Below, piece after piece: positions 4,621 through 39,359 of a stretch of DNA of 64,000 nt; the stretch's first letter is position 1; every line of letters starts with the position of its first letter. This DNA comes from the human T2T-CHM13v2.0 reference genome, Homo sapiens. The stretch is taken from NCBI RefSeq assembly GCF_009914755.1, contig NC_060943.1. One strand, 5' to 3'. Position numbers and translations under genes: made by a program. The notes below the pieces were generated by a model. It saw only the letters and a list, made by a program, of their open reading frames with translations. It ran no database searches and was not told the DNA's origin.

Positions 4621-4920
<300 letters not shown>

Positions 4921-4934
4921 AGGCATGCACTCTT

Positions 4935-6821: not shown

Positions 6822-7156
<335 letters not shown>

Positions 7157-7546: not shown

Positions 7547-7741
7547 CACCTCTCATCAGAGATCCACATCAGCTCATGCACCTGGCTCTGGTGCTGTCCC
7601 ACCTCAGGATCATTCCACTTTCTGCTGCAGGGCCTTGTCTGATTTCACAAAGACCTCTAGGTCCACACTAAGAGACAGCCCAGAGGTATGGGGTAGGTGT
7701 TTACAATGGAGGTGTTGACAGTCATCCTCATCGTGGAAGCC
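7547..7741 (+). repeat. ~195-bp direct duplicate of 8999-9192
   Basis: Colinear match including atgcacctggctctggtgctgtcccacctc and gacagcccagaggtatggggtaggtgtttacaatggaggtgttgaca; flanked by 13-bp direct repeat gtggaagccacct (7539-7551, 7733-7745). Confidence 0.95.
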
Positions 7742-9159
7742 ACCTTCTGACTCACTGCACCCATCCCAGCCATACCTCCTCATCCAGCGGCTATATGTCG
7801 ATTTGTCTCTCCCCTAATACAAGGCCCTGCCCTCCACCAGCAGAGCCAGACTGTCTGCCTGCAAGCCTGGCTTTTTATTCTGCTGCACTCAGAAATTACG
7901 CAAATCACAACTATTAGTATAACAGCTTCTGCAGAATTCACAAAGAAAAGGGAAAAAAAACACTGTCACAAAATCCCTGTGCTTGGTTAAAAGACCGTTA
8001 ATTTCCCCATTATCCTCACTCACTCTCTTGTTAATATGAGATGTGTGCATCTGAAGCCTGCTTTTCAGTCATATGAACATCTATAAAAGAGACATCAGTC
8101 AGCAGAAACCTCTGGAACTGCAACATGAAAGAGAATGAGGGAAAAGCCCAACTCCAGCTAGGGTGGAGAAGAGAAGAAAGGCGAGATGTGGGAGGTGGCC
8201 CTGGAAGGCCTGGGCGGGGGTCTCTAGAGGAACCTGGGAAGACTCTGGTGTGGGACAAAGCTCCAGATGGACTCTGAGCACTCTCGCTGTCCTGGAGGAC
8301 AGCTGTCTCACTGTTCTGGAGGGCCTCATTCCCCTTCTCATTCATCTCACTCACCATGCTAGAAGCCTCCCAAGGGCAAGAGCTGCACACCTGCACACCT
8401 GCGCCCCATCCCCTCCACAGCCCTGAGCAATGAGCAGGCACAGAGCCAGGGCCCGGGGAGGCCATGGAGAAATTGAGCTCCTTTGCTTGCCATCATTTCA
8501 GAGAGACCACAGTAGTCTTATTCCCTGTGAATGGATTGAGTTTCTTCTATCAATCAGGGTCCCCAAAGGAACAGGTGGCACATGGACATCAGAGGATTCA
8601 ATAACCTGACAATTTGCAAAGATTTCGGCGGAACAGTGACAGCAGAGATGAAGGAGCACATGATCCCAGGTGCTCAGAAGGAGGAAGCTGCCTCGAGAGC
8701 AGGGACTCAGTCAGCCCGAGCAACCCAGCAGGGAGGACGCAGGAGGAATCAAGGCCCTGTCTCCCTCCTCACTCCGTCTGCCTTCCTCCCAAGGGCCCCC
8801 TGGGAGCTGAGGGAGTAGAGGCAAGTTAGCCACCTGGGCCATGCCTCCAGGTCCCCTCCTGAGGCACAGAGCAAGGCAGAAAAGCTTCTGGGCCAGGCTC
8901 TGGCAGCACCAGTTGGATTTCCTCTGTAAGATGAAGACAATGGTCCTGGGAGAGCACAGCTGACCACCTAGCACCCTGGGCCATGTCACCTTCCAGCTCA
9001 CCTCTCATCTGAGGTCCACACCAGCTTATGCACCTGGCTCTGGTGCTGTCCCACCTCGTGATCATTCCACTTTCTGCTGTGAGGCTCTGTCTGATTTCAC
9101 AAGAGAACTCTAGGTCCACAATAAGACAGCCCAGAGGTATGGGGTAGGTGTTTACAATG

Positions 9160-12100
9160 GAGGTGTTGACAATCATTCTCATCGTGCAAGCCTGGGCATT
9201 CAGAGGCATTCATATTAGGCCTAGCCCAGGTGTTCACAGCCATTCTCATCAGGGCCAGCCCAGGTGTCGCTGCTATCCTCACTAGGCCCACCTCAGATGT
9301 TCACAACTGACCTCATTGGGCCCATGCAGGTGTTCATAGCCATCCTCATCAGGACGAGCCCAGGGTTCATAGCTGCCCTCACCGAGGTTTGTTTATATTT
9401 TCATATAACATTGTGAAAAACTGGCTTGGGGCCACTGAGTATAGCTGTGATCACCTGAGTTTGGCCCAATGAGGACAGCTGTGAACACCTGTGCTAGGCC
9501 CAATGAGGACAGCTATGAACATCTGGGCTGGGCCCCAAGACTACAGCTGTGCTTATTGGACCCTGATCTGGTGCTCTTAGCCATCTTCATTGAGACCAGC
9601 CTAGGTGTTCACAGCTTTTCTCATTGGGTCCAGCCCAGTTGTTCATAGCTATTCTCATCAGGGTCAGCCCAGGTATTCACAGCTGGCCATGGAGCTCAGC
9701 CAAGTTGTTCACAGCTGTCCTCATGAGACCCAGCCTGGTGTTTACCACCCCCTCCCTGAGTTCAGCCCAGTTTTTTACATCCATCTTCACTGGGGCCAGC
9801 CCAGGTATTCACAGCTGTCCTCATTGTGCCAAGCCAAGGTATTCACAGCTGTCCTCATGGGGGCCAGGTGAGGTACTCACAGCTGTTCCTTTCAAGGCCA
9901 ACCCAGGTGTTTACTGCTGTCCTCATTGTGTCCAGCCCAGGTGTTCATAACTGTCCTCATGGGGTTCAGGTGAGGTGTTCACAGTGATGCTCTTTGGAGC
10001 CAGCCAAGGTGTTCACAGCCATCCACATTGGCTTCATCCAAGATGTTCATAGCCATCCTTATTGGAGCCAGTGAGTTTGTTCACACCCATGCTAATACGT
10101 GTCAACCAAGGTATTATAGCTACACTCATCTGGGTGAGCCAAGGTGTTCACTGCTATCCTCACTGGGGCCCAGCCCAGGTGTTAATAGTTGTCCTTATGG
10201 GCCCAGCCCAGGAGTTTATATTGGTTCTCATCAGGGCAAGTCCGGGTGTTCAGTGCCATCCTATTGGGCCCTGACCTGGTATTCAGAGCCATCCTCACTA
10301 CTCCAGCCCAGGTATTCACAGTCGTTCTCATCAGGGCCTTGTACGTGTGCTCATAGTTGTCATCATTAGGTGTTTATGGGTAAGTCCAGGTGTTCAGAGC
10401 CATCCTATTAGGCCCAGTTTAGGTGTTCAGAATCATCCTTGTGGTGCCTAGCCTAGAAGTTCCCAGCTGTAATTATCATAGTCAGCCAGGGTTTCCACAG
10501 TCATCCTCATCAGGAACAGCCGTGGTGTTCACATCCATGCTCACTGGGCCTAGTTAAGGTATTAGAACCATCTTAATCATCAGGGCCAGATCAGGTGGTA
10601 ATGGCAGTTCTCTTTAGTGCCAGCCCAGTTATTCATAGCCATTCTCATTGGAACCAGATAATCTGTTCACAAACATTCTCACTGGGGCCAGCCAAATTAT
10701 GATAGCCATCCTCATCAGGGCCAGCTCATCTGTTCACAGCTGTCTTCACCGGGGGCAGCATAGGTGTTCACAGCCATCCTCAATGGGTCCAGCCAAGGTT
10801 TTCACAGCTGTCCTGATTGGGCCCACCCCAGAGGTTCACAGCTGTCATCATAGGACCCAGCAAAGAAGTACACAGCTGTTCTCATTGAGCTCAGCCCAGG
10901 TGGGCCAGTGCCAATTAGTGTGACTATAATACCTTGCCTGGACCCAACTAGCATGGGCAGGAGCAAATTGGCTGACCCCAGTGAGGATGGCTATGAACAT
11001 CTGGGTTGGTGGCAGTGTGGAAAAATATGAATATCTTGGCTGGCCCCAAAGAGAACCACCGTAAACATCTAGACAGGCCAAAATGAGGAAGTTTTGAAGA
11101 CAGCCATGAACTCCTGGGCTGGCTACGATGAGGACAGTTGTGAACAACTGAGCTGGGCCAAATTAGGACAGCTGTAAACACTCATGCTAGGCTCAATGAG
11201 GACAGCAGTGAACACCTATGGTGGCCAATGAGGTCAGATGTGAACAACTGGGTTGGCCCAATAAGGACAACAGTGAACACTTGGCTTATCCGCATGAGGA
11301 CAGCTTGGAACATCCGAGCTGATCTTGATAAGGACTACTGTGAATACATAGACTGAACCCAATAACAACAGCTATTAACACCTTGACTAGTTCCCTATGA
11401 GAACCACTGTGGACACCTGGGCTTGCCCCCAATGAAGATAGCTATGAACACTTGGGCTGACCTCAATGATGACAACTGTGAACACCTTTGCTGGCACTGA
11501 TGAGGACCATTGTGAACATGTTGGCTTGCAGTAATGAGGACAGATATGAACGCCTAGGCTGGACCCAGTGGAAAGAGAAGTGAACACCTAAGCTGACCCA
11601 ACAATGAAAATTGTGAAAAACTGGCTTGGAGCCACTGAGGATAGCTGTGGTCACCTGAGTTTGGCCCAATGAGGACAGCTGTGAACACCTGGGCTAGGCC
11701 CAATGAGGACAGCTATGAACATCTGGGCTGGTCCCCAAGACTACAGCTTTGAACAAATGGGCCGACCTTGATGAAGATGGCTGTGTACACCTGGGGTAGG
11801 CCCAGTGAGGACAGCAATTAACACTTGGGCTTTGCCTGTATGAAGTAAACTGTGAACACTTGTGCTGACTCCAATGAGCCTGGCTGGGAAGACCTGAACT
11901 GGCCCCAATGAGGATGGCTATAATACCTTGGCTGGGCCCAGTGAACATAGATGTGAACACTTAGGCAGGCCCTGATGAGGAGCACTGTGAACACCTAGGC
12001 TGGTCCTAATTAGGAAAACTGGGAACACTTGGGCAGGGCCCAGTGAGAATGGGCTATACTCAGTGATGAAAACTGTGAAGAACTGGCCTGGATCCCGTGA

Positions 12101-13954
12101 GGACGAATATGAACACTTGAGCGTGGACCAGTGAGAAAGGCTTTGAACACCTGGGATGGCCACAATGATGATGGCTGTGAACACCTTGGCTGGCCTCAGC
12201 GAGTGTTGCTATAATAGCTTGGCTGGCCCCAATTAACATGGGTGTGAACAAATAGGCTGGACCTAATGAGGATGGCTGTTAACACCTCAGGTGTCTCAGT
12301 TGAGGATCACTGTGAACACCTGAGCAGGCTCAGATGAAAATAGCTATGAACACCTAGGCTGGTCCTGATGAAGACAGCTAGGAACACCTGGGTGAGGCCC
12401 AGTGAGGATAGCTATTAACACCTGGCTGGCTTTCATGAGGATGGCTGTGAGCACCTGGTCTGGCCACTATTAAACAGTCTCTGGACACCTAAGCTGGGCC
12501 CAATGAGGACAGCTATTAACACCTGGGCTGGCCCAATAATGACCGTTGTGAACACTAACCCAGATAAGGATGGCTATGAAAATTTGGGCTGGCATCTAGG
12601 TAGATGGCTGTGACCTCCCAGGCTGGCCCCAGTGAGGATGGTTCTAATTCTTTAGCTGGCCTAAAAGAGCATGGATGTGAACACCTGGGCTGGTCCTAAT
12701 GAAGACAACTATGAATACCTAGGATAACCCCCAATAAAAACAGCTGGGAACACCTGGGATGGCCTTCATTAGGAAGTCTCCAACACCTGGACTGGGCCTA
12801 ATAGGATGGCTCTGAACACCTGGACTTGCCCTGGTGAGGACCTCTGTAATCACAGTGCTGGGCCCAATGAGGACAACTATTAACACCTGGTCTGAAAACT
12901 GGTGAGGAGTGCTCTGAACACTTAGGCTGAACCTGAGGAGGATGGCTGTAAACACCTGACCTGACCTCAATGAGGATAGCTGTGTAAAACTGGGATTGAC
13001 CTAGTGAGGACAGCTGTGAACACGTAGACTGATCCTACTGGGGACAATGGTGAACATCTAGGCTAAGCCCAATGAAGATAGCTCTGAATACCTGGACATG
13101 GCTCCTATGAGATAAAGTGCAAATGCCTGGGCTTGCCCAATGTGGACAGCTATGAATACCTAGGCTGAGCTCAATTATGAAAGCTGTGAACACATGGGCT
13201 TGGTCCAGTGAGGACAGTGGTGAACACTCAGGCTGGCCCTCATGAGGACAGCTGTGAACACTTTGTCTGGGCCCCATGAGAACAGCAGTGAATACCTGGG
13301 CTGGCCAAAATAAGGTAAAACAACTGAGCTAAACCCAATGAGAATGGCTGTGAACACCTAGGCTAGACACCAAGAAAATAGCTTTGAACACATGAGCTGA
13401 GCTCCATTAGGACACCTGTGAATACTTGGCCTGGCACCAGTGAAAACAGCTATGAACAATTGGGCTAGGCTCAGTGAGGATGGCTATAAACACCTATGCT
13501 GAACTCCATGAGATCAGCTGTGAACACCTGGCTATAATACCTTGGCTGGCCCCAATTAGCATGAGGGTGAACACATTGGCTGGCCCCAAGAAGAATGACT
13601 ATGAACACCTGAACTGGCACCATGTGAATGGCTGTGACCACCTGGGCTGGCACCAATGAAAACAGCTGTGAACAACTGAGCTAGGCCCAATATGAATGGC
13701 TCTGAACACCCAGGCTTGCACAATAAGGATGACTATCAACACCTCCATTAGCCCCAATGAGGATGGCTGTTAACACCTGGGCTGGTTCTGATAAGGACAA
13801 CTGTGAACACCCAGCATGAGCCCAATAAGAACAGTGGTGAACACTTAGGCTAGGCCAAATAAGGTCAGCCGTTAAAACCTGGGCTGGCCACAGCAAGGAT
13901 GGCTGTGAAAACCTGAGCTGGACCCAAAGGAAACACCTATGAAAAACTGGGTTG
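9160..13954. repeat. 34-bp satellite array, left part (mixed orientation)
   Basis: Diverged tandem copies of CCCAGGTGTTCACAGCTGTCCTCATTGGGCCCAG. Orientation + ~9160-9385, - 9410-9550, + 9551-10905, - ~10920-13954. Confidence 0.95.
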
Positions 13955-14290
13955 TGGGGTAGCTGGCAAGATGGCCGAAGAGGAACAATTCCAGTCTGCA
14001 GCTCCCAGTGAGATCGACACAGATGACAGATGATTCCTTCATTTCCAACTGAGGTACCCAGTTCATCTCATTGGTACTCGTTGGACAGTGGGTACAGCCC
14101 ATGGAAGGCAAGCCAAAGCAGGGTGGGGTGTTGCTTCATCTGGGAAGTGCAACGGGTCAGGGGATTTCCCTTTCCTAGCCATGGGAAGCCTTGAGAGACT
14201 GACTGTACCAGGAGGAATGGTGCATTCCGGCCTGGATACTGCACTTTTCCCGCAGTCCTCAAAACCAGCAGACCAGGAGATTCTCTCCTG

Positions 14291-14781
14291 GCTGTTTTCA
14301 TTAGGGGTTATGCTAGGTATTCATAGTTGTCTTCACTGGGACCAGCCCAGGTGTTCACATCCATGCTCTTTTAGGCCAGCTAAAGAATTAGAACCATCCT
14401 CACTGGGGCCAGCCTGGGAGGTCACAGCCATCTACCTAGATGCCAGCCCAAATGTTCATAGCCATCCTTATCTGGGTTAGTGTTCACAACGGTCATTATT
14501 GGGCCAGCCCAGGTGTTAATAGCTGTCCTCATTGGGCCCAGCTTAGGTGTCCAGAGACTGTTTAATAGTGGCCAGACCAGGTGCTCACAGCCATCCTCAT
14601 GAAAGCCAGCCAGGTGTTAATAGCTATCCTCACTGGGCCTCACCCAGGTGTTCCTAGCTGTCTTCATCAGGACCAGCCTAGGTGTTCATAGCTATTTTCA
14701 TCTGAGCCTGCTCAGGTGTTCACAGTGATCCTCAACTGAGACACCTGAGGTGTTAACAGCCATCCTCATTGGGTCCAGCCT
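14291..14781 (+). repeat. Satellite segment inserted in the L1 5'UTR; inverted copy of 12254-12744
   Basis: Reverse complement aligns ungapped to 12254-12744 with 7 mismatches in 491 bp (manual count); L1 5'UTR resumes at gcctggttcagtggg. Confidence 0.95.
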
Positions 14782-15459
14782 GGTTCAGTGGGTTCTACCC
14801 CAACAGAGCTCAACAAGCTAAGATCCACTGGCTTGAAATTCTCACTGCTCCACAGCAGTTTGAGGTCAACCTGGGATGCTTGAGCTTAGTGGGGGGAGGG
14901 GCATCCATCATTGCTGAGGCTTGAGTAGGCGGTTTTACCCTCACAGTGTAAACAAAGCTGCCGGGAAGTTCAAACTGGGCGGAGCCCACTGCAGCTCCCT
15001 GGGACAAAACACCTGTGGGAAGACTGTGGGTACAGCTTCAACCGACTTAAACGTCCCTGCCTGACAGCTCTGAAGAAAGCAGCAGTTCTCCCAGTACAGC
15101 GTTCAAGCTCTGATAAGGGACAGACTGCCTCCTCAAGTGGGTCCCTGACCTCCAATGTGTCCAGACTGGGAGATACCTCCCAGTAGGGGCTGACAGACAC
15201 CTCATACAGGAGCGCTCTAACTGATATCTAGGGGGTGCCCCTCTGGGATGAAGCTTCCAGAGGTAGGAACAGGGAGCAATCTTTGTTCTGCAGCCTCCAC
15301 TGGTGATACCCAGGAAAACAGAGTCTGGAGTGGACCTCTGGCAAACTCCAACAGACCTGCAGCAGAGGGGCCTGACTGTTAGAAGGAAAACTAACAAACA
15401 GAAAGGAATAATATCAACATCAACAACATCAAAGACGAAAGGTAGATAAATCCACGAAG

Positions 15460-16484
15460 ATGACGAGAAACCAACACAAAAAGGCTGAAAATTCCAAAAA
15501 CCAGAACGCCTCTTCTCCTCCAAAGTATCATAACTCCTCACCAGCAAGGGAACAAAACTGGACAAATAATAAGTTTGACGAATTGACAGAAGTAGGCTTC
15601 AGAAGGTGGTTAATAATAAACTCCTTTGAGCTAAAGAAGCATGTTCTAACCCAATGCAAAGAAGCTAAGAACCTGGATAAAAGTTTGGATGAGTTGCTAA
15701 CTAGAATAACCAGCTTACAGAAGAACATAAATGACCTGATGGAGCTGAAAAACACAGCACAAAAACTTCTTGAAGCATACACAAGTATCAGTAGCTGAAC
15801 TGATCAAGTGGAAGAAAGGATATCAGAGATTGAAGATCAACTCAATGAAATAAAGTTAGAAGACAAGATTAGAGAAAAAAGAGTGAAAAGAAATGAACAA
15901 AGACTCCAAGAAATATGGACAATGTGCAAAGACCAAATCTACATTTGATTGGTGCACCTGAAAGTGACGAGGAGAATGGAACCAAGTTGGAAAACACTCT
16001 TCAGGATATTATCCAGGAGAACTTCCTCAACCTAGCAAGGCAGACCAACATTCAAATTCAGGAAATACGGAGAACACCACAAAGATATTCCTCGAAAAGA
16101 GCAGCCCCAAGACACATAATTGTCAGGTTCACCAAGGTTGAAATGAAGAAAAAAATGTTAAAGGCAACCTGAGAGAAAGGTTGAGTTACCCACAAAGGGA
16201 TGCCAATCAGACTAACAGCTGATCTGTTGGCAGAAACCCTACAAGCCAGAAGACAGTGAGGGGAAAATTTTCAACATTCTTAAAGAAAAGAATTTTCAAC
16301 TGAGAATTTCATATCCAGCCAAACTAAGCTCCGTAAGTGAAGGAGAAATAAAATCCTTTCAGACAAGCAAATGCTGAGAGATTTTGTCACCACCAGGCCT
16401 GCCTTACAAGAGCTCCTGAAGGAAGCACTAAACATGGAAAAGAACAACCGGTACCAGCCACTGCAAAAACATACCAAATTGTAA
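15460..16484 (+). pseudogene. L1 ORF1p remnant (stops/frameshifts)
   Basis: ORF-track pieces MTRNQHKKAENSKNQ... and ...ENGTKLENTLQDIIQENF...; broken into fragments. Confidence 0.9.
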
Positions 16485-16547
16485 AAAGCATCAACACTAT
16501 GAAGAAACTTCATCAACTAGTGGGCAAAATAACCAGCTAGCATCATA

Positions 16548-17583
16548 ATGACAGGACCAAATTCACACATAACAATATTAACCTTAAATGTAAATGGGCC
16601 AAATGCCCAAAGACACGGACTGGGAAATTGAATAAAGAGGCAAGACCAATTGGTGTGCCCATCTCACATGCAAAGACACAAATAGGCTCAAAATAAAGGA
16701 ATGGAGGAAGATTTACCAAGAAAATGGAAGGAAAAAAAAATTAAGGGTTGCAATCCTAGTCTCTGATAAAACAGACCGTAAACCAACAAAGATCAAAAAA
16801 TACAAAGAAGGGCATTACATAATGGTAAAGAGATCAATGCAGCAAGAAGAGCTAACTATCCTAAATATATATGCACCCAATACAGGAGCACCCAGATTCA
16901 TAAAGCAAGTTCTTAAAGACCTACAAAAAGCTGGAGAGGATGTGGAGAAATAGGAATACTTTTACACTGTTGGTGGGACTATAAACTAGTTCAACCATTG
17001 TGGAAGTCAGTGTGGCGATTCCTCAGGGATCTAGAACTAGAAATACCATTTGACCCAGCCATCCCATTACTGGGTATATACCCAAAGGACTATAAATCAT
17101 GCTGCTGTAAAGACACATGCACATGTATGTTTATTGCGGCATTATTCACAATAGCAAAGACTTGGAACCAACCCAAATGTCCAACAATTATAGACTGGAT
17201 GAAGAAAATGTGGCACGTATACACCATGGAATACTATGCAGCCATAAAAAATGATGAGTTCATGTCCTTTGTAGGGACATGGATGAAATTGGAAACCATC
17301 ATTCTCAGTAAACTATCGCAAGAACAAAAAACCAAACACCGCATATTCTCACTCATAGGTGGGAATTGAACAATGAGATCACATGGACACAGGAAGGGGA
17401 ACATCACACTCTGGGGACTGTTGTGGGGTGGGGAGAGGGGGGAGGGATAGCATTGGGAGATATACCTAATGCTAGATGACGAGTTAGGGGGTGCAGCACA
17501 CCAGCATGGCACATGTATACATATGTAACTAACCTGCACAATGTGCACATGTACCCTAAAACTTAAAGTATAATAATAAAAAA

Positions 17584-17614
<31 letters not shown>

Positions 17615-20600
17615 AAAAGACCTACAAAGAGACTTAGACGTCTGCAAAATAATAGTGGGAGACTTTTACACCCCACTGTCAATATTGGACATATTAACGA
17701 GACAGAAAATTAGCAAGGATATTCAGGACTTGAACTCAGCTCTGGACCAAGTGGACCTAATAGACATCTGCAGAACTCTCCACTCGAAATCAACAGAATA
17801 TACATTTTTTTCAGCACCAAATCACACTTATTCTAAAATTGACCAAGTAATTGGAAGTAAAACACTCCTCAGCAAATGCAAAAGAATGGAAATCATAACA
17901 GTCTCTCAGACCACAGTGCAATCAAATTAAAACTCAGGATTAAGAAATTCACTCAAAACCACACAACTACATGGAAACTGAACAACCTGCTCCTGAATGA
18001 CTACTGGGTAAATAATGAAATGAAGGCAGAAATAAAGATGTTCTTTGAAACCAATGAGAATAAGACACAACATACCAGAATCTCTGGGACACATTTAAAG
18101 CAGTGTGTGAGGGAAATTTATAGCACTAAATGCCCACAAGAAAAAGCAGGAAAGATCTGAAATTGTCACCCTAACGTCAAAATTAAAAGAAGTAGACAAG
18201 CAAGCGCAAACAATTTCAAAAGCTAGTAGAGGACAAGAAATAACTAAGATCAGAGCAGAACTGAAGGAGATAGATACACGAAAAACCCTTCAAAAAATCA
18301 ACGAATCCAGGAGCTGGTTTTTTGAAAAGATCAACAAAATACAGAGACTGCTAAGCAGACTAATAAAGAAGAAAAGAGAGAAGAATCAAATAGATGCAAT
18401 AAAAAATGATAAATGAGATATCACCACCAATCTGACAAAAATACAAACTACCATCAGAGAATACTATAAACACCTCTATGCGAAAAACTAGAAAATCTAG
18501 AAGAAATGGATAAATTCCTGGACACATACACCCTCCCAAGACTAAACCAGGAAGAAGTAGAATCCCTGAATAGATCAATAACAAGTTCTGAAATTGAGGC
18601 AGTAATTAACAGCCTACCAACCAAAAAAAAGCCCAGGACCAGATGGATTCACAGCCGAATTCTACCAAGGGTACAAAGAGGAGCTAGTACCATTGCTTCT
18701 GAAACTATTCCACACAATAGAAAAAGAAGGAATCCTCCCTAAACTCATTTTATGAGGCCAGCATCATCCTGATACCAAAACCTGGCAGAGATACAACAAA
18801 AATAAAGGAAAATTTCAGGCCCATATCCTTGATGAACATCAATGCGAAAATCCTCAATCAAATATTGGCAAACCCAATTCAGCAGCACATCAAAAAGGTT
18901 ATCCACCATGATCAAGTGGGCTTCATCCCTGGGATACAAAGCTGGTTCAACATATGCAAATCAATAAACGTAATCCATCACATAAACAGAACTAATTACA
19001 AAAACCACATAATTATCTCAATAGATGCAGAAAAGGCCTTTGACAAAATTCAACAGCCCTTCATGCTAAAAACTCTCAATAAACTAGGTATTGATGGAAA
19101 GTATCTCAAAATAATAAGAGCTATTTATGACAAACCTACAGCTAATATCATACTGAATAGGCAAAAACTGGAAGCATTCCCTTTGAAAACTGACACAAGA
19201 CAAGGACGCCCTCTCTCACTTCTCCTTTTCAACATAGTATTGGAATTTCTGGCCAGGGCAGTCAGACAAGAGAAAGAAATAAAGGGTATTCAAACAGGAA
19301 GAGAGGAAGCATATTATCTCTGTTTGCAGATGACATGATTGTATATTTAGAAAACCCCATTGTCTCAGCCCAAATCTCCTTAAGCTGATAAGCAACTTCA
19401 GCAAAGTCTCAGGATACAAAATCAATGTGCAAAAATCACAAACACTCCTATACACAAATAACAGACAAACAGAGAGCCAAATCATGAGTGAATTCCAGTT
19501 CACAATTGCTACAAAGAGAATAAAAAACCTAGGAATACAACTTACAAGGGATGTGAAGGACCTCTTCAAGGAGAACTACAAACCACTGCTCAAGGAAATA
19601 AAAGAGGACACAAACAAATGGAAAATCATTCCATGCTCATGGATAAGAAGAAACAATATCGTGAAAATGTCCATCCTGCCCAAAATAATTTATAGATTTA
19701 ATGCTATCTCCATCAAACTACCATTGACTTTCTTCACAGAATTGGAAAAAAACTACTTTAAACTTCATATGGAACCAAAACAGAGCCCACATAGCTAAGA
19801 CAATTCTAAGCAAAAACAACAAAACTGGAGGCATCATCCTACCTGACTTTATACTACAAGGCTACAGTAACCAAAAGAGCATGGTACTGGTACCAAAACA
19901 GATATATAGACCAATGGAACAAAACAGAGGCCTCAAAAATAACACCACACATCTACAACCATCTGATCTTTGAAAAATCTGACAAAAACAAGCAATGGGG
20001 AAAGAATTCCCTATTTAATAGATGGTGTTGGGAACACTGGAATGCAGAAAGCTGAAACTGGATCCCTTCCTTACACCTTATACAAAAATTTATTCAAGAT
20101 GGATTAAAGACTTAAACATAAAACCTAAAACCATAAAAACCCTCGAAGAAAACCTGGCCAGTACCTTTCAGGACACAGGCATTGGCAAAGCCTTCATGAC
20201 TAAAACACCAAGGGCAATGGCAACTAAAGCCAAAATTGACGAATAGAATCTAATTAAACTAAAGAGCTTCTGCACAGCAAATGAAACTATCATCAGAGTG
20301 AACAGGAAACTTACAGAATGGGAGAAAATTTTTGAAATCTATCCATCTGACAAAGGACTCATATCCAGAATTTACAAATAACTTAAATTTACAAGAAAAA
20401 AAACAAACATCCTCATCAAAAAGTGGGCAAAGGATATGAACAGGCATTTCTCAAAAGAAGACATTTATGCAGCCAACAAACATGAAAAAATGCTCATCAT
20501 CAATGGTCATTAGAGAAATGCAAATCAAAACCACAATGGGATATCATCTTGTGCCAGTTAGAATGGCGATCGTTAAAAAGTCAGGAAACAACAGATGCTG

Positions 20601-21046
20601 GAGAGGATGTGGAGAAATAGGAATGCTTTTACACTGTTAGTGGGAGTGTAAATTAGTTCAACCATTGTGGAAGACAATCTTTGTTGTTCTGCAGCCTCCA
20701 CTGGTGGCCATTCCTCAAGGATCTAGAACTAGAAATACCATTTGACCCAGCCATCCCATTACTGGGTATATACCCAAAGGATTATAACTCATTCTACTGT
20801 AAAGACACATGCACATGTATGTTTATTGCAGCACTGTTCACAATAGCAAAGACTTGAAACCAACCCAAATGCCCATCAATGATAGACTGGATAAAGAAAA
20901 TGTGGCACATATACACTGTGGAATACTATACAGCCATAAAAAGGGTGAGTTCATGTCCTTTGCAGGGACATGGATAAAGCTGGAAACCATCATTCTCAGC
21001 AAACTAACACAAGAACAAAAAACCAAATACTGCAAGTGGGAATTGA
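16548..21046 (+). pseudogene. L1 ORF2p remnant (EN/RT), fragmented and interrupted by a nested L1
   Basis: Fragments such as [23 protein letters not shown] and a frameshifted FADD motif near 19322-19337. Confidence 0.9.
16931..17615 (+). mobile_element. 5'-truncated young L1 (L1PA2-like) nested in ORF2 of the older L1
   Basis: 3'UTR variants attgggagatatacctaatgctagatgacgag and gagatcacatgg; (TAAA)n tail; TSD aaagacctacaaa(a/g)ag at 16915-16930 and 17616-17631. Confidence 0.9.
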
Positions 21047-21246
21047 ACAACAAGAACACATGGACACAGGGAGGGGAACATTATGCACTGAGGCCTGTGG
21101 GGGGGTGGGGGGTGAGGGGAGGGATAGCATTAGGTGAAATACCTAATGTAGATGACAGGTTGATGGGTACAGCACATTCTGCACATGTACCCCAGAACTT
21201 AAAACAAACAAACAAATGAATAAACAAACAAAAAAAAACTGGGTTG

Positions 21247-24200
21247 GACACAAGGAGGATGGCTGAGAACACCTGAGCTGGCCCTGATGAGAATGGATGT
21301 GATCACCTGGGCTGCCCTGATGAGGGTGGCCCTACGATATTGGCTGCACCCATTGAGCATGAATGTGAACACCTAGGTTGTCCCTGACAAGGACCACAGT
21401 GAACACCTAAGCTGCCCCCGATAAGGAAAGCCTGGTCTGGCCCCCATGAGGAAGGCTTTGATCACCTAGGAAAGGCACAATAGGATGGTTGTGAACACCT
21501 GAAGTTGCCCTGAGATGGACCTCTATACAACTATGTTTATAGTCATGAAAACATGTGAACTATAAACATGTGAACTGGGTCAGAGAAGTATCACGGTGAA
21601 CACTTAGGCTGGACCCAGTGAGGAGAGCTATGAACCCCTGGCCTGGCACAATGAGAATGTCTATGAAAACCTGGGCTTTGCCCAGAGAGGACGGCTGTGA
21701 AAACCTGGATTGACCCCTAAGAAGAGGCTTGGAACATGTTGGCTGGCCTGCTTGAAGGCGGCTATGATACCTTGGCCAGCCCTAATTTCCATAGCTGTGA
21801 ACAGGAGGACTGGCCCTGATGAGGATGGCTATGAACATTTGGGATGGTGATAATGTGGATTGTTGTGATGGGCTGAGCTGGCTCAAGTGAGGACCACTGT
21901 GAACACCTGCAAAGGCCCAGATAAGAACAGCTATGAAAACCTGGGATGCTCCCAGTGGAGACAGCTATGAACACCTGGGCTGGGCTGAGTGTGGACAACA
22001 GTGAAGACCTGGGTTAGCTCAGATGAGGACAGCTATGAATACCCTGCCAGGCCCCGATGAGGGTGACCTTAATACCTTGATTGACACCAGTGATCCACAT
22101 TAGGACAGCTGTGAACACTTGTGCTGGACCCAATAACTACATCAGTGAACATTTCTTGGGGCTGGACCAGATGAGGACAATTGTGGACACCTGGGCTGGG
22201 CTCAAAAGAATAACTGTATATTAGGGCTGGGTATAACAAAGACAGCTTTGAACATGTGGGCTGTACCCTATGAGGAGAGCTTTGAACACCTGGACTGACA
22301 CCTATTAGAATAGCTGTGAATACCTCCACTGGGACTAGGTCTCTATATGAACTACTTTGTACACCTGTCCTGGCCCAATGAAAATAGCACTAAACATTTA
22401 CATTGGCCCTCATGAAGAGATCTTTGAACACCTGGGCTTTCTCTGATGATGATGGCTGTGAACACCTGGGCCATCCTCACTGGGCACAGCCAAGTTTTTC
22501 ATAGCTGTCCTAACTGAACCCAGCCTAGGTGTTCACAGCTGTCATCATTGGGTGTAACCTGGGTGTTCACATCTACCCTTATTTGGGCCTAGCCCAGGTA
22601 TTCTAGGTTTCCTCATTGGGCCCAGCACAAACATACACAACTATGGTTGTGGGCCCAGCCCTGGTATTCATAGCCATTGACATCGGGGCCAGCCCAGGTG
22701 TACATGACCATTCTTTCCAGGGCCAGCTAAGGTGTTCATGGCTGTCCTCATGGGGCCAGCCCAGGTGTTCACAGCTGTTCTCATAGGTCCTATCCCAAGT
22801 ATTCACTGCTGTTCTAATGCGGCCTAGTCCAGGTGTTCACTGCTGCCCTCATTGTACCCAGCCCACATGATCACAGATGTCCTAATAGGGCCCAGCCCAG
22901 GTATTCACTCTAAAACCTGGCCAGGGCCCAATGAGGACAGCTGTGTTCATCTAGGCTGGGCCCCATGAAGGCAGCCTGGAACCCCTGGCTTGACCCAGGG
23001 AGGATTGCTGTGAACACCTGGGCTGCCCCAATGAGGGTGGCTATACTATAGGTTGGCTGGCCCCAAAGATCATGGCTGTGAACACATTGGCTGATCCTGA
23101 TGGGGATGGCTATGAACACCTGGGCTCAGCCCAATGAAGATGACGACAAACACCTTGGCTGGCCCCAATGAGAATGACAATGAACAATTTCCTGGGCCAA
23201 AGGAGGACAGCTGTGAACACATGAGGTTGGCCCAATGTGGACAGGAGTGAATACCTGGTTGTCCTAGATGGGGACAGCTGTGAACACCTAGGCTTGCCCA
23301 CATTAGGACAGCTATGAACACCTGGGATGGGCCCAGTGACACTAGCAGTGAATTCCTCAGCTGGATTTGACAAGGATGGTTATCAACACCTGGACTGGCC
23401 CCAACCTAGATGGCTATGAACACCTGGGCATGGCCCAAAAGCTTAACTGAGTACATCTGGCCTGGGCACAATGAGGAAAACTTTGAAACATCTGGGCTGG
23501 TCCCTGTGAGGACAGATTTGAACATTTGGACTTACCCTGATGAGGACAGCTGTGAATACTTTGACTGGCCCTGAAGAGAACAGCCATGAACACCTGGCCT
23601 GGGCCCAAGGAGAACAGCTATGAGAAAACCTGTGACTGGCCAAGAAAGGACCACTGTGAACACCTTGCCTGGTTTCACTGAGGGTGGTATCCTATTTGGG
23701 CTGGCCCCAATTAGCATGAGTGTGAACAAATTGGCTGGCTCCACTAAGAATTGCTATGAACATCTGAGCTGGTGCTAATGTGGACAGCTGTAACCACCTG
23801 GATTGGCCCCACTGAGGACCAAATGTACATTTATCCTTTTGGGCCCAGCCCAAGTGTTCATAGCCACCTAAGCTGAGGCTACCCCAGGTGTTCATAACCA
23901 TCCTCATCAGGTCCAGCCCCTTGAGGTGTTCACTGCTATAGTCATTGGGTCCAGCCCAGGTGTTCATAGCCGTCCTAATGTGGACAGGCCCAGGTGTTCA
24001 CAGCTGTTCTCATCTGGGACAGCCAGGTATTCACTCCTATTCACATTGGGTCAACCTCAAGTGTTTACAGCTGTCCTCTTTGGACCCAGGAAATTGTTCA
24101 TTGCCATTCTCATTGGAGCTTCCCAGATATTCAAAGCCATTCTCATCAAGGCATATCTGGTTTTTAAAGCTGTCTGCATTGGCCCTGACAAAGTATTCAC

Positions 24201-27200: not shown

Positions 27201-27345
27201 GGACTGGCCTAGTGAGTACGGCTGTGAATGCCTGGGCTGATCCTGATGAGGACGACAGTGAACATGTAGGCTAAGCCCCATGAATACAGCTCTGAAAACC
27301 TGGACATTGCTCCTATGAAAATGATTGTGAACTCCCGGGCAGGCC
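21247..27345. repeat. 34-bp satellite array, right part (mixed orientation)
   Basis: Same monomer. Orientation - 21247-22470, + 22471-22909, - 22910-23820, + ~23833-25105, - ~25120-27345. Confidence 0.95.
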
Positions 27346-27559
27346 TCAGTGCCCTGTGGACCTGACTCTGGGGAGACCAAAGTAGCCCTCTGAGACCTGC
27401 ACCCTGTCCCAGAGAGTCCCCGCATCCTCACCTCTGTGCCTTCCCAGTGACCCCCGCACCTCTGCCTGTGTTGCAGATTCCTCTAACATGAAAGAGTCAT
27501 GATGTGGGGATGTCACCCTGGCCCAGAAAGGATACAAATCATGATGCTCTGGAAGATTT

Positions 27560-28850
27560 TATTTAGCAATGTCTTGTATATAGCTGATGTTATATTTGTT
27601 GTTCTTTTATTTGTTGTTTTTATAGTGGCTTTATTTGTTACGTCATTATATTTGTCTTGCTATATTATTTGTTGTCTTCTATATTTGTTTAAAGTTACAT
27701 ATTAAGTAATAGTTATCCCCTTCTAATTGCTTATAGAATATTTTCCTGTGAAATGAAACCCATGATAGGAAATCTCCCTCAGCAGAGCTAGGACTCACTG
27801 AATTAGAAAGCAGTCCCTCCAGTGACTGCCACTCTCTCTCTTATGTCTTCCTAATTTCATCTTAATTGGCCGAAGTACCAGCAAATACACCCTCACTCAT
27901 TGTCTTTACATCAGTGTCCTTCGAGAGATTGTTGTCTGAAATCTGTTCCTTCCTCTGGAAGGGATCCTGGGAACAACCTTCCCCACGGTCTCCACAGTGA
28001 CTTAGCTGTCAGGGCCTTTCCTGCCCCATGGTCAGCACAGCTGGTGTGAGCTTCCTGGCTCACTGGCGCTTTCCCTGAGTGTCTTCAGAATTTTTCTCCA
28101 TTTTTTTCCAGCATAGAGTATTTCTTGCTGAGAGGTGGATGAGAGTCTAATTTTCACTTCTTTGTGTATTACTCACTCTTCTAGTCTAGATGCTTTAAAA
28201 ATGCATTTTGTCTTCAAGTTCAGGAGTTTACTCAAATATCATTTGCTGTTAGCCATTTCACATCAATCCTCAGTATTCTTTTGAAGAAACACTTACAAAA
28301 CATTGTTTTTATTTTCAGAAAAAATTGGAATGATCGTTGTTCATATTTCCTTGTGTCTTTGCTTTGATTGTTCTCGTTCAGGCACCTTAATCATGCATCC
28401 ATTTGGCTACTCTCCCTAAACATTTATAACCTCTTGCTCATTTTCTTTTGAAATATTCTCCTCACTTTAACCTTCTGTTTCTTAGAAGGCAGAAGCTGTC
28501 ATTGTGTTGTCTCTAGTTTACATTTTATAGCTGAAGAGTGTTTCCAATTATTTTTCTTAGTCTTTTTGGAGTTTCATCCATGCATTGCTATATTTCTTTA
28601 ATTCTGATGAATGGTGTCCTTTTGTGTTTGATATTATTTTCTTAATGCCTTTGATCTCATTGTTGAAAAGGCCACAGTCCAGTGGGTGAGTTACATTGAG
28701 GTGGGAACTTTCACATTTTCTAGTGGTTTTACTCTATAAGTATTCATTTTGTCTATTACATGTCTTTGTATGAGAATTGGCATCAATATATTTCTGTTGC
28801 TGATTTTTATATGGATTTTGTCTTCATGAATTTGTAATGAGCATTATAAT
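27560..28850 (-). mobile_element. Very old L1/HAL1-like ORF1-region remnant
   Basis: T-rich strand with gagagtctaattttcacttctttg...aagttcaggagtttactc, resembling antisense old L1 ORF1; weak match. Confidence 0.35.
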
Positions 28851-29716
28851 TCAGAAACCTTTTCCAACCTCATAGAGCTTCTCTCTCTGAAATCTCTGTG
28901 CAGTGCTCACAACTATGACACCGGTTTCCTGGAATTTCCTGCCTCTGTGCTTCTCCCCTTCTGTAACAGGAGCCTCCTCCCTGGTTTCCTCCACTGCACT
29001 CCAATCCTCTCTTTGGAACCTGCAACTGAATATTGCTCCTAAATGGGAAGACTGTCTTGCAAGGGGACAACTGCCACAATATTGCCAAAATGTAAGCTGA
29101 TTCACTTTAAGTGCATATTCACTTTCCAGATCATTTTGTTCTTTTCTGTTATATATCTGAAAACCGGTTTCTTCTCTGACTTATTTTATTTATTTTTATT
29201 TGTCAGTATTTTATTCTTATGATTATCAATTTTTACTTTTTTGTGTATTTAAGATTTTTTGTATTTTGATGTTTATATTTGAGTGATTTTAGACTTAATT
29301 TTCACATGATTTTAGATGTATCTCTTTTCAAAGTGATTTGTTGTTTGCTGTGGGGATTTATCTTTAGGTATTGGGTGGTTGTTATTTATTTTGAATCCAG
29401 TAGATTCCCAGACATGCAGGGTCATGTCTAACTGGGCCACAAACTCTTTCTGCCTCTTGACATTTTCAGGCATAGACAACAGGCTCTTCACAGTGCACTG
29501 TGGATGTCACAAAATCCCCATAAATTGTCCTTAAATTATTGCCCATGTTTTATTAAAAAGTATTATTTAGGAAGTAACCTCTGAAAAGAAAGAACTCTTT
29601 TAATTTTCTTTACTAATATTTAAAAATTTAGTCCACATATAAAAGCATGTCTGTCATATTATGCCCCAAATCCTCTTATTGAGCAATTGGAAAACATATT
29701 CCTAAGCTGAGGCTTA

Positions 29717-29911
29717 CAGTCATTGCTCATTATCTGCAGGGGTTGGTTTCAGGACCCCCACAGATTCCAGCATCTGACAATGCTCAAGTCCCTGGTATAA
29801 AGTGGCACAGCATCTGCATATAAGCCATGCCCGTGCTCCTGTGCACTTGAAATCATCTCAGATCTCTCCTCAACCCCATAGGCAGGAACTGCTATGCAAA
29901 TAGTTGTTATC
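29717..29911 (+). mobile_element. MER2 (Tigger-derived) fragment
   Basis: cagtc...ggttggtttcaggacccc...atgctcaagtccct.gtataaa...gctatgcaaatagttgttat. Confidence 0.75.
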
Positions 29912-29924
29912 CTCTCTGCCAGCC

Positions 29925-30175
29925 CCTACCTCCACCTACCTTGTCTTATGCCTCTCTTCCATGTGACTTTTCCTGAGCTGCATTTTTTAATATGAAATAA
30001 ACCTGTACATATGAGTAGAGTGCTTTTCTGAGTTGTCTGATTCATTCTGGTGAACCTGAGGGAGGTGTTGTGGGAACTCCTGAATTGGTAGTCTGCCAGG
30101 AAGAAGCCTCGGCAGCTAGGCCACCCCATTGGTTGCTGGCATCTAAGTGAGGACAGTGCTGTGGGACCGAGCACA
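29925..30175 (+). mobile_element. MER21-like LTR fragment
   Basis: aataaac...ttttctgagtt...gaacctgagggagg..ttgtgggaac.cc...tggcatctaagtgaggacagt..tgtgggac.gagc. Confidence 0.6.
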
Positions 30176-30184
30176 TAATCATAG

Positions 30185-30668: not shown

Positions 30669-30875
30669 GCAGGTAGGAACGGAGTGCTAGTAGGAGCTGG
30701 GTGCATGGCTCGAGTAGGAGCAGGAGCAGAGTGCTGGTAGGAGCTGGGTGCACAGCACAGGTAGGAGTTGGGCACGGGTAGGAGTGGGGTGCTGGTAGAA
30801 GGTGGGTGCACGGCATGGGTATGTACGGAGTGCTAGTAGGAGCCGGATGCATGGCATGGGTAGCAGCGGAGTGTC
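30665..30875. repeat. Degenerate G-rich minisatellite (~38-50 bp units)
   Basis: Recurrent gtgct(a/g)gtaggagctgggtgca and gggtaggag motifs, about five units. Confidence 0.75.
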
Positions 30876-31907: not shown

Positions 31908-31977
31908 TGAAAGTCTAGAGCAAGAATACTTAGCTCAGAGACTGAAAGTCTAGAGCAAGAATACTTAGCTCAGAGAC
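31908..31977. repeat. Perfect 35-bp tandem duplication
   Basis: tgaaagtctagagcaagaatacttagctcagagac occurs twice head to tail. Confidence 0.95.
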
Positions 31978-32049
31978 TGATCTGGATGAGGCTGGGGAAG
32001 GAGACCACCAGAGCTTAAACGAAGCCACTAAAAGCAGTAAGAGAAACAA

Positions 32050-34859
<2,810 letters not shown>

Positions 34860-35300: not shown

Positions 35301-35329
35301 TAAAAAAAACAATAGTTAGGGAGGACAGG

Positions 35330-35469
35330 TAGCATTAGGAGATATACCTAATGCTAAATGACGAGTTAATGGGTGCAACACACCAGCATGGCACATGTAT
35401 ACATATGTAACTAACCTGCACATTGTGCACATGTACCCTAAAACTTGAAGTATAATAATAATAAAAAAA
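35330..35469 (+). mobile_element. Short 3'-terminal L1PA3/4-like fragment
   Basis: tagcattaggagatatacctaatgctaaatgacgag...gtaccctaaaactt plus A-rich tail. Confidence 0.9.
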
Positions 35470-35642
35470 GGTTATAAAAACAAAATAAAATTTGCATTTA
35501 GTGTACACAGTCTGATTGCCCTGAAAACTGTCTTTCCTAGTTTGTTCTCCAACCAACATGTGCAATGTGCCTGGGACCATGCCCTCTTATCAAGGGAAAG
35601 GCAGGAGAGAGCTGGCATGAGGGCCATTCAGGATATGAAAGT

Positions 35643-35984
<342 letters not shown>

Positions 35985-36929
35985 TCATGAACGACTCCAG
36001 ACTGGAGTATCAAGGCTGACAAGGCTGGAAAGATTCCCTTGCTGAGTTTTGCAAGATATGCACAGTAACCATATACTAATTTTGAGTTGCAAAATTGAAG
36101 AATTGTTTATATATGTCCTCATCTTACAAGAACACCTGAAGTAGCTCAGTTGTAAGAGATTTAGATTGCAAATCAAAAGGTACTTGGATGGGGCCCAGGT
36201 TCCAGTAGGATGATCACCTTTTTTATATCCAGGTCTCATTTCAGTCATAAGAAGTATTCACAGCAGAGCTTCCCCTGCAGGATGCTCAAGTATATTTGCT
36301 GTGGCAACTGAGGGAACCAAGCCTCAGTCATGTTCCCCAGAGCTTGCCCATGGCATTTACATTTGCAAAAAGTAAATCTCTTGATTTCCTTTCGGTTTCA
36401 GTAGTGTGATTTCCTTTTCAAAAATAATAGCAAGTGATACTAGTTTACATATAAATAGAAACTGTAAAGTTCCTTTGTTTTTACTATTTATCAATATATT
36501 TAATAATTATATATATTTATATAGCCTGAAATAATGCAAACAACTTTAAAGAATTGACACATTTGTTTATATTTTACAGGTAAAAAGATTAAAATTTTGG
36601 CTTATTTGCCTGAAGTCACACTGCTAGTTAAATGACAGAGCTAAAAAATGTTAAATAAGTTGCTAAATGAATGTAATTAATTTGGTTTGTTTGTTTCCTA
36701 AAATATTGATTTAAATGTCTTTATTTAAATTTTAAAATGATAGCATTTGAAAGAGTATAAATAAAATTCTTAAGCCGCAATAGTAAAGAAATTTAGTTAC
36801 AATGCATGAAGTTAGAAGCAATAGCTTTGGATTTGTAAATGTATTCTTGAAGGGTGTCATAAAGAAATATTTTATTCCTATTTTTCCTTTGTTTTGTTGG
36901 AGTAGTTTTCCCCCATCTTTAATGAGGTA

Positions 36930-38310
36930 TAATTGCTTTACCAGTTCGAATAGGTTTTTATAGCCATTGTGGAGTCTTTAGATTTTTCTATGTATATGAT
37001 CATGTCAACTGCAAATAGGGAGAGTTTTTCTTCTTCCTTTTAGATTTAGATACATGCTATTTCTTTTTCTTCTCTTATTGCTCTGGATAGAAGTTCCAAT
37101 ACTATCCTGAATAGAATCAATGAGAGTGGATATCCTTGCCTTGTATGGGATTTTAGAGGAAAGGCCTTCAGCTTTACACCATTGATTATGTTAGCTGTGA
37201 GTTTATCACCTACGGCCTTTGTTGTGTGGGGGATATGTTCCTCCTATACCTATTTTATTGAGAGTTTTTTTTAATCAATAATAGAAGTTGAACTTTGTCA
37301 AATGGTTTTTCTCCATCTGTTGAGATGATCACATGTACTTTTTCCTTGTTTGTGTATTCACCACATTAATTGATTCACATCAGCTGAACTACTCCCATAT
37401 CCCAGAGATATATTTCACTTTGTCATGCTGTATGATCCTTGTAATGTGCTTTTGAATTCAGTCTGGTCATGTCTCATTGAGGATATGTGCATCTATGTTC
37501 ATCAGGGATACTGGCTTGTGGCTTTATTTTCTTGCTCTTTTTCTGGCTTTGGTATCAGTGTGATGCCAGCTGCATCAAATGCATTTGGAAGTGTCCCCTC
37601 TACTTACATGTGCTGGAAGCATTTGATAAGGATTGTTATTATTCTTCTTTGAATGTTTGGTAGAATCCACTCACGAAGCCACCTGGTTCTGGGCTTTTCT
37701 TTTTTGGGAGGTTTTTGTTTGTTTTTTTAAAATATTATTCATTTTTCCATCTTTATTGAGGTATCATTAACAAATAAAAATGTATATGTTTACAGTATAC
37801 AAAGTTATATTTTGATACTCATATTCATCATGAAATGATTTCCCCCAATCAAACTGAGTAACATGTTCTTCACCTCACATACTTATCATTCTTTTTGGGA
37901 TATGGTAAAAACGTTTATGATTTACTCTCTCAGCAAATTTTACACATTCAATACAGTAATATTAACTAGTCACCATGCTGCACCTTTGATCTCCAGAACC
38001 TATTCATCTTGCATAACTGAAACTTGGAACCCTTTTACCAATATCTCCCTATTTTCCTCACCTCTCAGTCCTCGGAAACCATCATTCTACTCTTGGTTTC
38101 TGTAAGTTCAACTTCTTTAGATTCCACATATCCTGCGATTATGCAGAATTTATCTTCTGTGTCTGGCTTGTTTTGTTTAGCATGCCCTCCAGGTTCATTC
38201 ATGTTGTGGCAAATGATAGAGCTTTCTTCTTTTTAAGCCTGAGTAATATCCTATTGAGTATATACAGTGCATTTTCTTTATCTATTCATCCATTGATGGA
38301 TGGACACTTA
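36930..38310 (-). mobile_element. L1MA/MB-type fragments: ORF2 RT piece (~36930-37720) and a 3' end (~37740-38310)
   Basis: Antisense RT motif atgatcatgtcaactgcaaataggga; ctttattgaggtat, atctccagaacctattcatct and ctttagattccacata are typical L1MA 3' end motifs. Confidence 0.8.
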
Positions 38311-38954
38311 GTGAGGGTGGCATGTGGATAGGAGGCGTTCTGCATTTCTCCAGTTAGATCTCAGTCTTTATTGAGCCTGTGTCTCTGAACTTCACATGGG
38401 TTTCTCAGGCTTCTCCCACGAGGTCGCAAAGGATAGCTAAGGTGGACTGGAGCTGGACATTTCCCTCCCCCAACACAGAGGGCTGGAGCTAGCTGAGATC
38501 CAGTCTCACTTTCCCTACCTAGGTCAGTGAGGCTCTGATAAAATCTTAGAAAACTTAGGTTCTGGTTAAGTAGTTTTGCCTGAGGGCAGACTTTGTTAAG
38601 CACAGAGCATTCTGGTAGCATGAGTATTTCCCCCCAGTATTTACTGTGAGAACCTGGTTGAGCTACTGGAGGTCAAAACCACAAAACGATCTCGCTTCCC
38701 CATGACTGAGTGCCCCTGGTGTTTTTAGTTCTCAGGCCAGTCCACAGCCAGCCTCTAGCAGCTTCATTGCAGCTGAAGCTCTCCTGCCCTAGCCTGGCTC
38801 CCACAGAGCTTTCTGCACTTGTGTGTCTTGACTCCCTGCATTCATTTTCCTGTCTCTGTAATTTTGAAAGCAGCAGTCGCCCCATGAATTTAATTATTTT
38901 GTGAATCTATGATGAATAGTTGATTGTTCAGCTTTGTTCTTTTTGTTAACATGG

Positions 38955-39359
38955 TGTATCAGTCCATTTTCATACTGCTATGAATAAATAGTAGTGTGGG
39001 TAATTTATGGGTAATTTATTACTGGGTAATTTATGAAGAAAAAGAGGTTTAATGGACTCACAGTTCATATGACTGGGGAGGCCTCCCAGTCACAGTGGAA
39101 AGCCAAGGAGGAGCAAAGTCATGTCTTAGGTGGTGGCAGGCAAGAGCCTGTGCAGGGGAACTCTCCCTATTTGCCGATGACATGATCATATAGGTAGAAA
39201 AGTGATAGTGAGACTTATTCACTATCACAAGAACAGCACAGGAAAAACTTGCCCCCATGATTCATTTACCTCCCACCAGGTCCCTCCCAAGACATGTGAG
39301 GGTTATGGGAGCTACAATTCAAGATGATATTTGGGTGGGGACACAGACAAACCAGATCA
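38955..39359 (-). mobile_element. THE1 (C/D-like) solo LTR
   Basis: tgtatcagtccattttcatactgctat...ttgggtggggacacagacaaaccagatca; 5-bp TSD catgg at 38950-38954 and 39360-39364. Confidence 0.92.

What the first reader, a model, noticed from the sequence alone, without database searches (positions are those of the whole stretch)
7547..39201. Cluster of at least five local templated insertions, each with its donor a few kb away
Seen (insert <- donor): 7547-7741 <- 8999-9192 (direct); 9410-9548 <- 11610-11748 (direct); 14291-14781 <- 12254-12744 (inverted); 20675-20706 <- 15277-15305 (direct); 39159-39201 <- 36984-37026 (inverted). None has a polyA tail and most show junction microhomology. Their differing divergences suggest different ages. 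Inference: a long-lived hotspot of break repair by template switching (polymerase theta end joining or MMBIR-like), possibly promoted by fold-back structures of the mixed-orientation satellite; four of the five lie in or beside the array.
Basis: partly seen in the sequence, partly recalled or inferred. Interest (0 to 1): 0.7.

Follow-up and report, generated by a model that had tools for sequence, protein, structure and literature searches.

The report
Local DNA repair copies around satellite
This gene-free stretch of human chromosome 19 holds several short pieces that match DNA 1-5 kb away and were likely pasted in while breaks were repaired, a known and ordinary kind of scar that is only modestly crowded here, around an old 34-base repeat array.

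Summary
All five pairs exist. Four are well supported as local templated insertions: E1 (empty site in a segmental-duplication copy 0.93 Mb away), E2, E3 and E5 (local donor best or joint best genome-wide). E4's donor cannot be fixed: 892 other loci match it within 2 mismatches, 7 exactly. They fit the published class of repair-mediated duplications (Pace et al. 2009): donor within 5 kb, microhomology, small deletion, filler or short flanking duplication, no polyA. Divergence of 1.4-9% shows different ages. I found three more, older copies inside the array. The hotspot is only partly supported. One filter kept 6 events in the window against 7 in 280 kb of controls (P=0.02, uncorrected); for 100 bp or more, 5 against 1 (P=0.001). 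The excess sits at the array, short events are at background, the satellite-free paralog gained as many insertions as this copy (1 v 1), and the window was chosen for this feature. Fold-back as cause is not supported: none of the five acceptors lies at an older orientation switch, and E2 itself made two switches. Polymerase theta alone fits the 6-bp hairpin filler of E5, not the 139-491 bp inserts. Known kind, low interest.

The parts
7547..7741 (+). E1 insert, 194 bp net, copy of 8999-9192; 13-bp flanking duplication (7539-7551 and 7733-7745); 5-bp microhomology left, 8/9 right
   Evidence: empty site in paralog; 15/186 differences
8999..9192 (+). E1 donor; spans the join between the segmental duplication and the satellite
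1..9143 (+). Part of an old segmental duplication shared with G000:C19:31.474-31.504 Mb, about 10% diverged; ends at the array edge
9145..13954 (.). 34-bp satellite array, left part, mixed orientation (family not named here)
9156..9266 (-). B0: extra, older inverted copy of 13639-13749 at the array edge
   Evidence: 94/111 v next best 76/111; BLAST score 60 is close to the shuffled-monomer maximum 57
9410..9548 (+). E2 insert, copy of 11610-11748, opposite in orientation to its flanks; about 27-bp filler left (9383-9409), 6-bp microhomology right at the monomer's palindrome
   Evidence: 5/139 differences
11610..11748 (+). E2 donor
12254..12744 (+). E3 donor
13955..21238 (+). Full-length older L1 splitting the array, 13-bp target-site duplication (13942-13954, 21234-21246); host of E3 and E4; L1 identity recalled from sequence
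14291..14781 (-). E3 insert, inverted satellite copy in the L1 5' UTR; about 1 bp lost, 4-bp microhomology right, none left
   Evidence: 7/491 differences
15277..15305 (+). E4 candidate donor in the same L1's 5' UTR (not proven)
20675..20706 (+). E4 insert, L1 5' UTR sequence in the L1 3' part; 2 bp lost, microhomology 2 and 3 bp; junction unique in the genome
21239..27348 (.). 34-bp satellite array, right part; 23942-27318 is an old direct duplicate of 9787-13110 (11-17% diverged)
22094..22195 (-). E6: extra, older inverted copy of 23883-23984, sharing a 4-bp insertion with it
   Evidence: 85/102 v next best 61/102; flagged 'check', not kept, by the filter
23836..24116 (-). Extra inverted pair with 23165-23441, 395 bp apart, 14% diverged; direction not settled
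36984..37026 (+). E5 donor inside an old L1 fragment
39159..39207 (-). E5 insert in an LTR-type repeat: inverted copy of 36984-37026 plus a 6-bp filler (39202-39207) that completes a 10-bp inverted repeat with 39219-39228; about 20 bp of host missing

Best explanation
The window holds at least four short insertions whose closest match lies 1.3-2.1 kb away, likely made by separate rounds of imperfect break repair over millions of years. Inferred steps: a broken end is resected, primes on a nearby stretch of the same chromosome or its sister through a few matching bases, copies 40-490 bp in either direction, lets go, and rejoins the other end by microhomology, leaving a small deletion, filler or a 13-bp flanking duplication (SDSA-like or MMBIR-like capture closed by microhomology end joining). 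The local excess likely comes from the array itself: breaks inside it find many 70%-alike 34-mers in both orientations (E2, B0, E6, the 23.2/23.8 kb pair), and such copies create orientation switches. The events outside it (E1, E3, E4, E5) are not clearly above the background seen in the controls. Shown: pairs, junctions, empty sites, age spread. Inferred: pathway, role of the array.
For: Empty site for E1; uninterrupted host copies for E3-E5; best donors local for E1 (4 of 4 candidates scored), E2/E3 (8 of 8 scored; other chromosomes 63-69% over long stretches, 70-88% over short pieces) and E5; junction types all occur in Table 1 of PMC2671141; sizes and distances within its range (up to 619 bp, under 5 kb); divergence 1.4, 3.6, 8.1, 9.3% and 14-17% for the extra copies; all five kept events of 100 bp or more have satellite in the donor; E2's right junction falls on the monomer's palindrome and E2 produced two of the seven in-array switches.
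Against: The array effect rests on small counts: controls are 280 kb, of which 100 kb random; the rate for 100 bp or more rests on one event (upper 95% bound 20/Mb, at which hundreds of 64-kb windows would reach five). Sister arrays of about the same total length gave no inversion and one captured piece, so being this satellite is not enough. No primate orthologs could be read. The pathway cannot be told from sequence alone. E4 may come from elsewhere or from the L1's own RNA.
Confidence: 0.55

Rival explanations
1. No local effect: ordinary repair-mediated duplications that fell together by chance, in a window chosen because it had them.
For: Controls hold 7 events in 280 kb, 1.6 per 64 kb; since the segmental duplication this copy and the satellite-free copy each gained one (24.9 kb aligned); outside the array neighbourhood the window has one event, E5; at 3.6/Mb about one 7.3-kb window per genome would hold three long events; PMC2671141 saw no trend to cluster.
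Against: 5 v 1 events of 100 bp or more (P=0.001 uncorrected); four within 7.3 kb expected in 0.008 windows per genome at the point rate, though 6.6 at the upper bound; 7 orientation switches here and none in three sister arrays.
Confidence: 0.3
2. One reading: fold-back structures of the mixed-orientation array cause repeated breaks, making a long-lived hotspot.
For: 5 of 7 switch-centred 301-nt stretches fold far better than shuffles (z -5.3 to -9.8) while 7 of 7 single-orientation stretches of this array do not (z -1.4 to +1.1); only the mixed array shows many events.
Against: None of the five acceptors is at an older switch: E2 is about 1.4 kb from 10901, E1, E3 and E4 are outside satellite, E5 is 12 kb away; the two strongest left-hand hairpins were made by E2 itself; arms are only about 70% alike; one of 4 control stretches (chr5, single orientation) also scored z -6.8; the single-orientation chr10 array donated a 64-bp piece.
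Confidence: 0.1
3. Some inserts came through L1 reverse transcription or from distant copies of the same repeats, not from local DNA repair.
For: E1 has a 13-bp flanking duplication, the size of an L1 target-site duplication; E4 has 7 exact distant matches and its candidate donor is in the same L1; E5 is L1 sequence.
Against: No polyA and no T-rich endonuclease-like site at E1, which has microhomology at both ends; microhomology plus duplication occurs among proximal repair duplications (PMC2671141 Table 1); E4's junction is found once in the genome; E5's local donor is joint best of the genome.
Confidence: 0.05

Closest known systems
Repair-mediated duplications (Pace, Sen, Batzer, Feschotte 2009, PMC2671141; read: parts 1-5 of 8 of the text, and the first 30 of 39 chr19 places in the supplementary table)
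   Same: Non-tandem copy, donor within 5 kb, 50-619 bp, microhomology, deletion, filler or short duplication, no polyA, ages spread through primate evolution.
   Different: Their pipeline excluded repeat-derived donors and inserts under 50 bp and reported no clustering; none of the 9 proximal chr19 acceptors in their table lies here (coordinate conversion recalled, backed by a table row matching the 0.93-Mb paralogy).
Doublets (Thomas et al. 2004; known here only as cited in PMC2671141)
   Same: Short local non-tandem pairs attributed to break repair.
   Different: Described there as short and near-identical; E1-E3 are longer or more diverged.
Polymerase theta templated insertions (PMC7165422; passages read)
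   Same: E5's 6-bp filler is an inverse-repeat, hairpin-primed type; 2-6 bp microhomologies.
   Different: Typical size 3-30 bp and template within about 30 bp; distal templates under 0.1% of repair; E1-E3 are 139-491 bp from over 1.2 kb.
MMBIR-linked templated insertions (PMC8421209; passages read)
   Same: Microhomology-primed template switch and return, found as germline variants.
   Different: That survey covers inverted copies with the template within 100 bp.

Membership tests
Repair-mediated duplication (Pace 2009) | Insertion shown by an empty site or interrupted repeat | tested here: met
   E1 paralog; E3, E4, E5 host copies; E2 only by a phase break
Repair-mediated duplication (Pace 2009) | Donor within 5 kb and more than 50 bp away | tested here: met
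   E1 1258, E2 2062, E3 1547, E5 2133 bp; E4 is 5370 bp, just outside
Repair-mediated duplication (Pace 2009) | At least 50 bp | tested here: met
   E1-E3 yes; E4 and E5 (32, 43 bp) are below this detection limit of the paper
Repair-mediated duplication (Pace 2009) | One identifiable parental copy | tested here: inconclusive
   Met for E1, E2, E3, E5 by best match; not met for E4
Repair-mediated duplication (Pace 2009) | Microhomology, deletion or filler, and no polyA/T tail | tested here: met
Repair-mediated duplication (Pace 2009) | Absence at orthologous primate loci | not testable with these tools
   The genome has no relatives here
Polymerase theta templated insertion | 3-30 bp copied from flanking DNA within about 30 bp | tested here: not met
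   Not met for E1-E4 and E5's main piece; met only for E5's 6-bp filler
Polymerase theta templated insertion | Dependence on POLQ | not testable with these tools
   Fixed historical events
L1-mediated retroposition | PolyA tail, target-site duplication and T-rich endonuclease site | tested here: not met
   No tail in any; only E1 has a flanking duplication, at a non-T-rich site
Fold-back-driven break hotspot | Breakpoints at the centres of pre-existing inverted repeats | tested here: not met
   0 of 5 acceptors
Named human satellites (SATR1/2, HSAT4-6) | Match to the family consensus | not testable with these tools

The most novel reading that the evidence does not exclude
An old, diverged 34-bp array acts as a lasting local source and sink of repair-mediated copies, and these copies are what scrambled its orientation: a ratchet from a single-orientation array (as on chromosomes 5, 10 and 16) to a mixed one, recorded in at least six dated copies of 100 bp or more from about 17% to 1.4% divergence. 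It would be a cluster of a class reported not to cluster.
Probability: 0.3. Interest if true: 0.5.

Novelty: new member of a known kind. Interest (0 to 1): 0.22.

Why it matters
As single events they are ordinary neutral scars in gene-free DNA. If the pile-up holds genome-wide, it would show that repeat-derived donors, which the 2009 survey left out, make repair-mediated duplication cluster at diverged arrays and can explain mixed-orientation satellites. The control also suggests the class is far commoner than the published floor of 0.62 per Mb (3 events of 50 bp or more in 280 kb here), on small numbers.

Tried and rejected
Distant donors: rejected for E1, E2, E3, E5; open for E4. E4 inherited from a source L1: rejected, junction found once at up to 3 mismatches. 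Retroposition: rejected. Chance monomer similarity: rejected for E2, E3 and the 23.2/23.8 kb pair; B0 is marginal by BLAST score against a null only 3.4 kb long but clear by ungapped rank. Template for E2's left filler: none found (best 18/24). Sister arrays as direct outgroup: no colinear match to this array. Right flank 27300-30100: no continuing paralog among 40 of 676 candidates scored. Rfam 7000-40000: no match. The binomial test on orientation switches is discarded: it counted 9 (7 in the array plus 2 from E3), switches come in pairs, and the chr5 and chr16 arrays are 92% identical. The planned 1.2-Mb random background could not be fetched, so the density test is weak. Earlier findings were not open. 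Searches (listings only) showed no paper on this locus or on such clusters at satellites; that is a thin search, and preprint supplements (T2T repeat annotations) that may name the array were not seen.
Full report
Observation. Self-BLAST finds all five pairs. Gap-free divergence: E3 7/491 (1.4%), E2 5/139 (3.6%), E1 15/186 (8.1%), E5 4/43 (9.3%). E3 differs from E1 (Fisher P=6e-5) and E2 from B0 (P=0.001); E3 v E2 and E2 v E1 do not differ significantly (0.15, 0.11).

Setting. Window bases up to 9143 belong to a segmental duplication, about 10% diverged, with G000:C19:31.474-31.504 Mb; the match stops at the array edge. A 34-bp satellite runs 9145-13954 and 21239-27348, split by a full-length L1 with a 13-bp target-site duplication (repeat names are recalled from sequence, not from a library). 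The array has seven internal orientation switches and an old direct duplication, 9787-13110 v 23942-27318. Related arrays lie on chromosomes 5, 10 and 16; the three I fetched are single-orientation, but two of them are 92% identical.

Each event. E1: the paralog has the flanks joined with one copy of a 12-13 bp motif that is doubled around the insert; microhomology is 5 bp left and 8/9 right; the donor includes the array edge, so E1 is younger than both the duplication and B0. E2: an opposite-orientation block with an AT-rich filler left and a 6-bp microhomology at the monomer's palindrome right; the phase of the flanks implies about 20 bp or more lost. E3: inverted satellite in the L1 5' UTR; three of four fetched relatives show the uninterrupted site with the 4-bp microhomology, and the closest implies 1 bp lost. 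E4: junction unique in the genome, 2 bp lost, microhomologies of 2 and 3 bp; 893 loci including itself match within 2 mismatches and 7 others exactly, while the local candidate needs a 3-bp indel, so local origin is plausible but unproven. E5: no other locus within 3 mismatches of the 41-mer; for the 30-bp core the local donor is one of two best among 48 other loci; a 6-bp filler completes a 10-bp inverted repeat with a 7-nt loop, as hairpin-primed synthesis would leave. Extra copies: B0, E6 and the 23165-23441/23836-24116 pair.

Density. One filter (25-1000 bp, at least 80%, 50-6000 bp apart, best other match under 75% of the local score) gave 689 candidate pairs. It kept 6 in the window (E1, E2, E3, E5, B0, the inverted pair; E4 falls below the score and E6 was only flagged) and 7 rows in 280 kb of controls. 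Two control rows are one event, and I added by hand one flagged row (a 64-bp piece beside the chr10 array whose rival match is a paralog), giving 7 events; one of them, 117 bp apart, may be a decayed tandem. Controls were 150 kb of chr19q neighbours, 30 kb around sister arrays and 100 kb from 8 of 24 drawn random places (first 10-20 kb of each; of the first 12 drawn I skipped four, as likely satellite or segmental duplication by recall). None is corrected for window choice. At 3.6/Mb, three long events in 7.3 kb are expected about once per genome and four 0.008 times; at the upper bound 180 and 6.6 times. The paired control goes against a wide hotspot: of 22 gaps of 20 bp or more between the two duplicated copies, one on each side is a non-tandem local copy.

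Fold-back. Five of seven switch-centred stretches fold much better than shuffles, so the capacity exists in silico. But no acceptor among the five lies at an older switch, two of the strong hairpins are products of E2, one single-orientation control also scored z -6.8, and the single-orientation chr10 array donated a piece too. The inserts explain some switches better than the switches explain the inserts.

Mechanism. Shown: insertion, local donor, junction forms, age spread. Inferred: resection, microhomology-primed invasion of a template 1-2 kb away, 40-490 bp of synthesis, release and microhomology joining. PMC2671141 (parts 1-5 of 8 read) describes 824 such human duplications within 5 kb, up to 619 bp, 0.62 per Mb of repeat DNA as a minimum, excluding repeat-derived donors, with no trend to cluster. 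None of the nine proximal chr19 acceptors in its table falls here by my recalled coordinate offset (30 of 39 places seen, which covered the proximal sheet). PMC7165422 (passages) puts polymerase theta insertions at 3-30 bp from nearby flanks, which fits only E5's filler. PMC8421209 (passages) covers templates within 100 bp. PMC11724301 was seen as abstract and outline only.

Verdict. Real features of a known class (about 0.9). A real but array-bound excess is somewhat more likely than not (about 0.6); a fold-back cause is unlikely (0.1). No gene is affected; E5 lies 40 bp before an annotated enhancer, with no evidence of a link. Interest 0.22.

Noticed in passing
window 22470-22908: Reverse-orientation block with no good donor; re-inverting it restores monomer phase on one side and leaves a 12-bp near-duplication on the other, so it looks like an in-place inversion.
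   Followed up: partly
window 16930-17617: A younger L1 3' piece with its own A-rich tail and 13-bp target-site duplication nested in the older L1.
   Followed up: partly
window 9143: The segmental duplication with G000:C19:31.47-31.50 Mb ends exactly at the array, with the inverted copy B0 at the join; B0 may be a junction insertion made with the duplication.
   Followed up: partly
L006 6458-6521 (G000:C19:31476458-31476521): A 64-bp, 98% local copy of 31475332-31475395, absent from the duplicated copy upstream of the window: a background repair duplication.
   Followed up: yes
L021 944-1007: A 64-bp piece of the chr10 array copied 1.3 kb outside it; not found in the fetched chr5 and chr16 flanks.
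   Followed up: partly
window 27377-27527: The array's right flank matches at 78-79% five places 20-45 kb from the sister arrays on chr5 and chr16, hinting at a shared very old origin.
   Followed up: no
window 23821-23832: A perfect 12-bp palindrome at the orientation switch near 23825.
   Followed up: no
window 31908-31980: A perfect 35-bp tandem duplication, likely recent.
   Followed up: no
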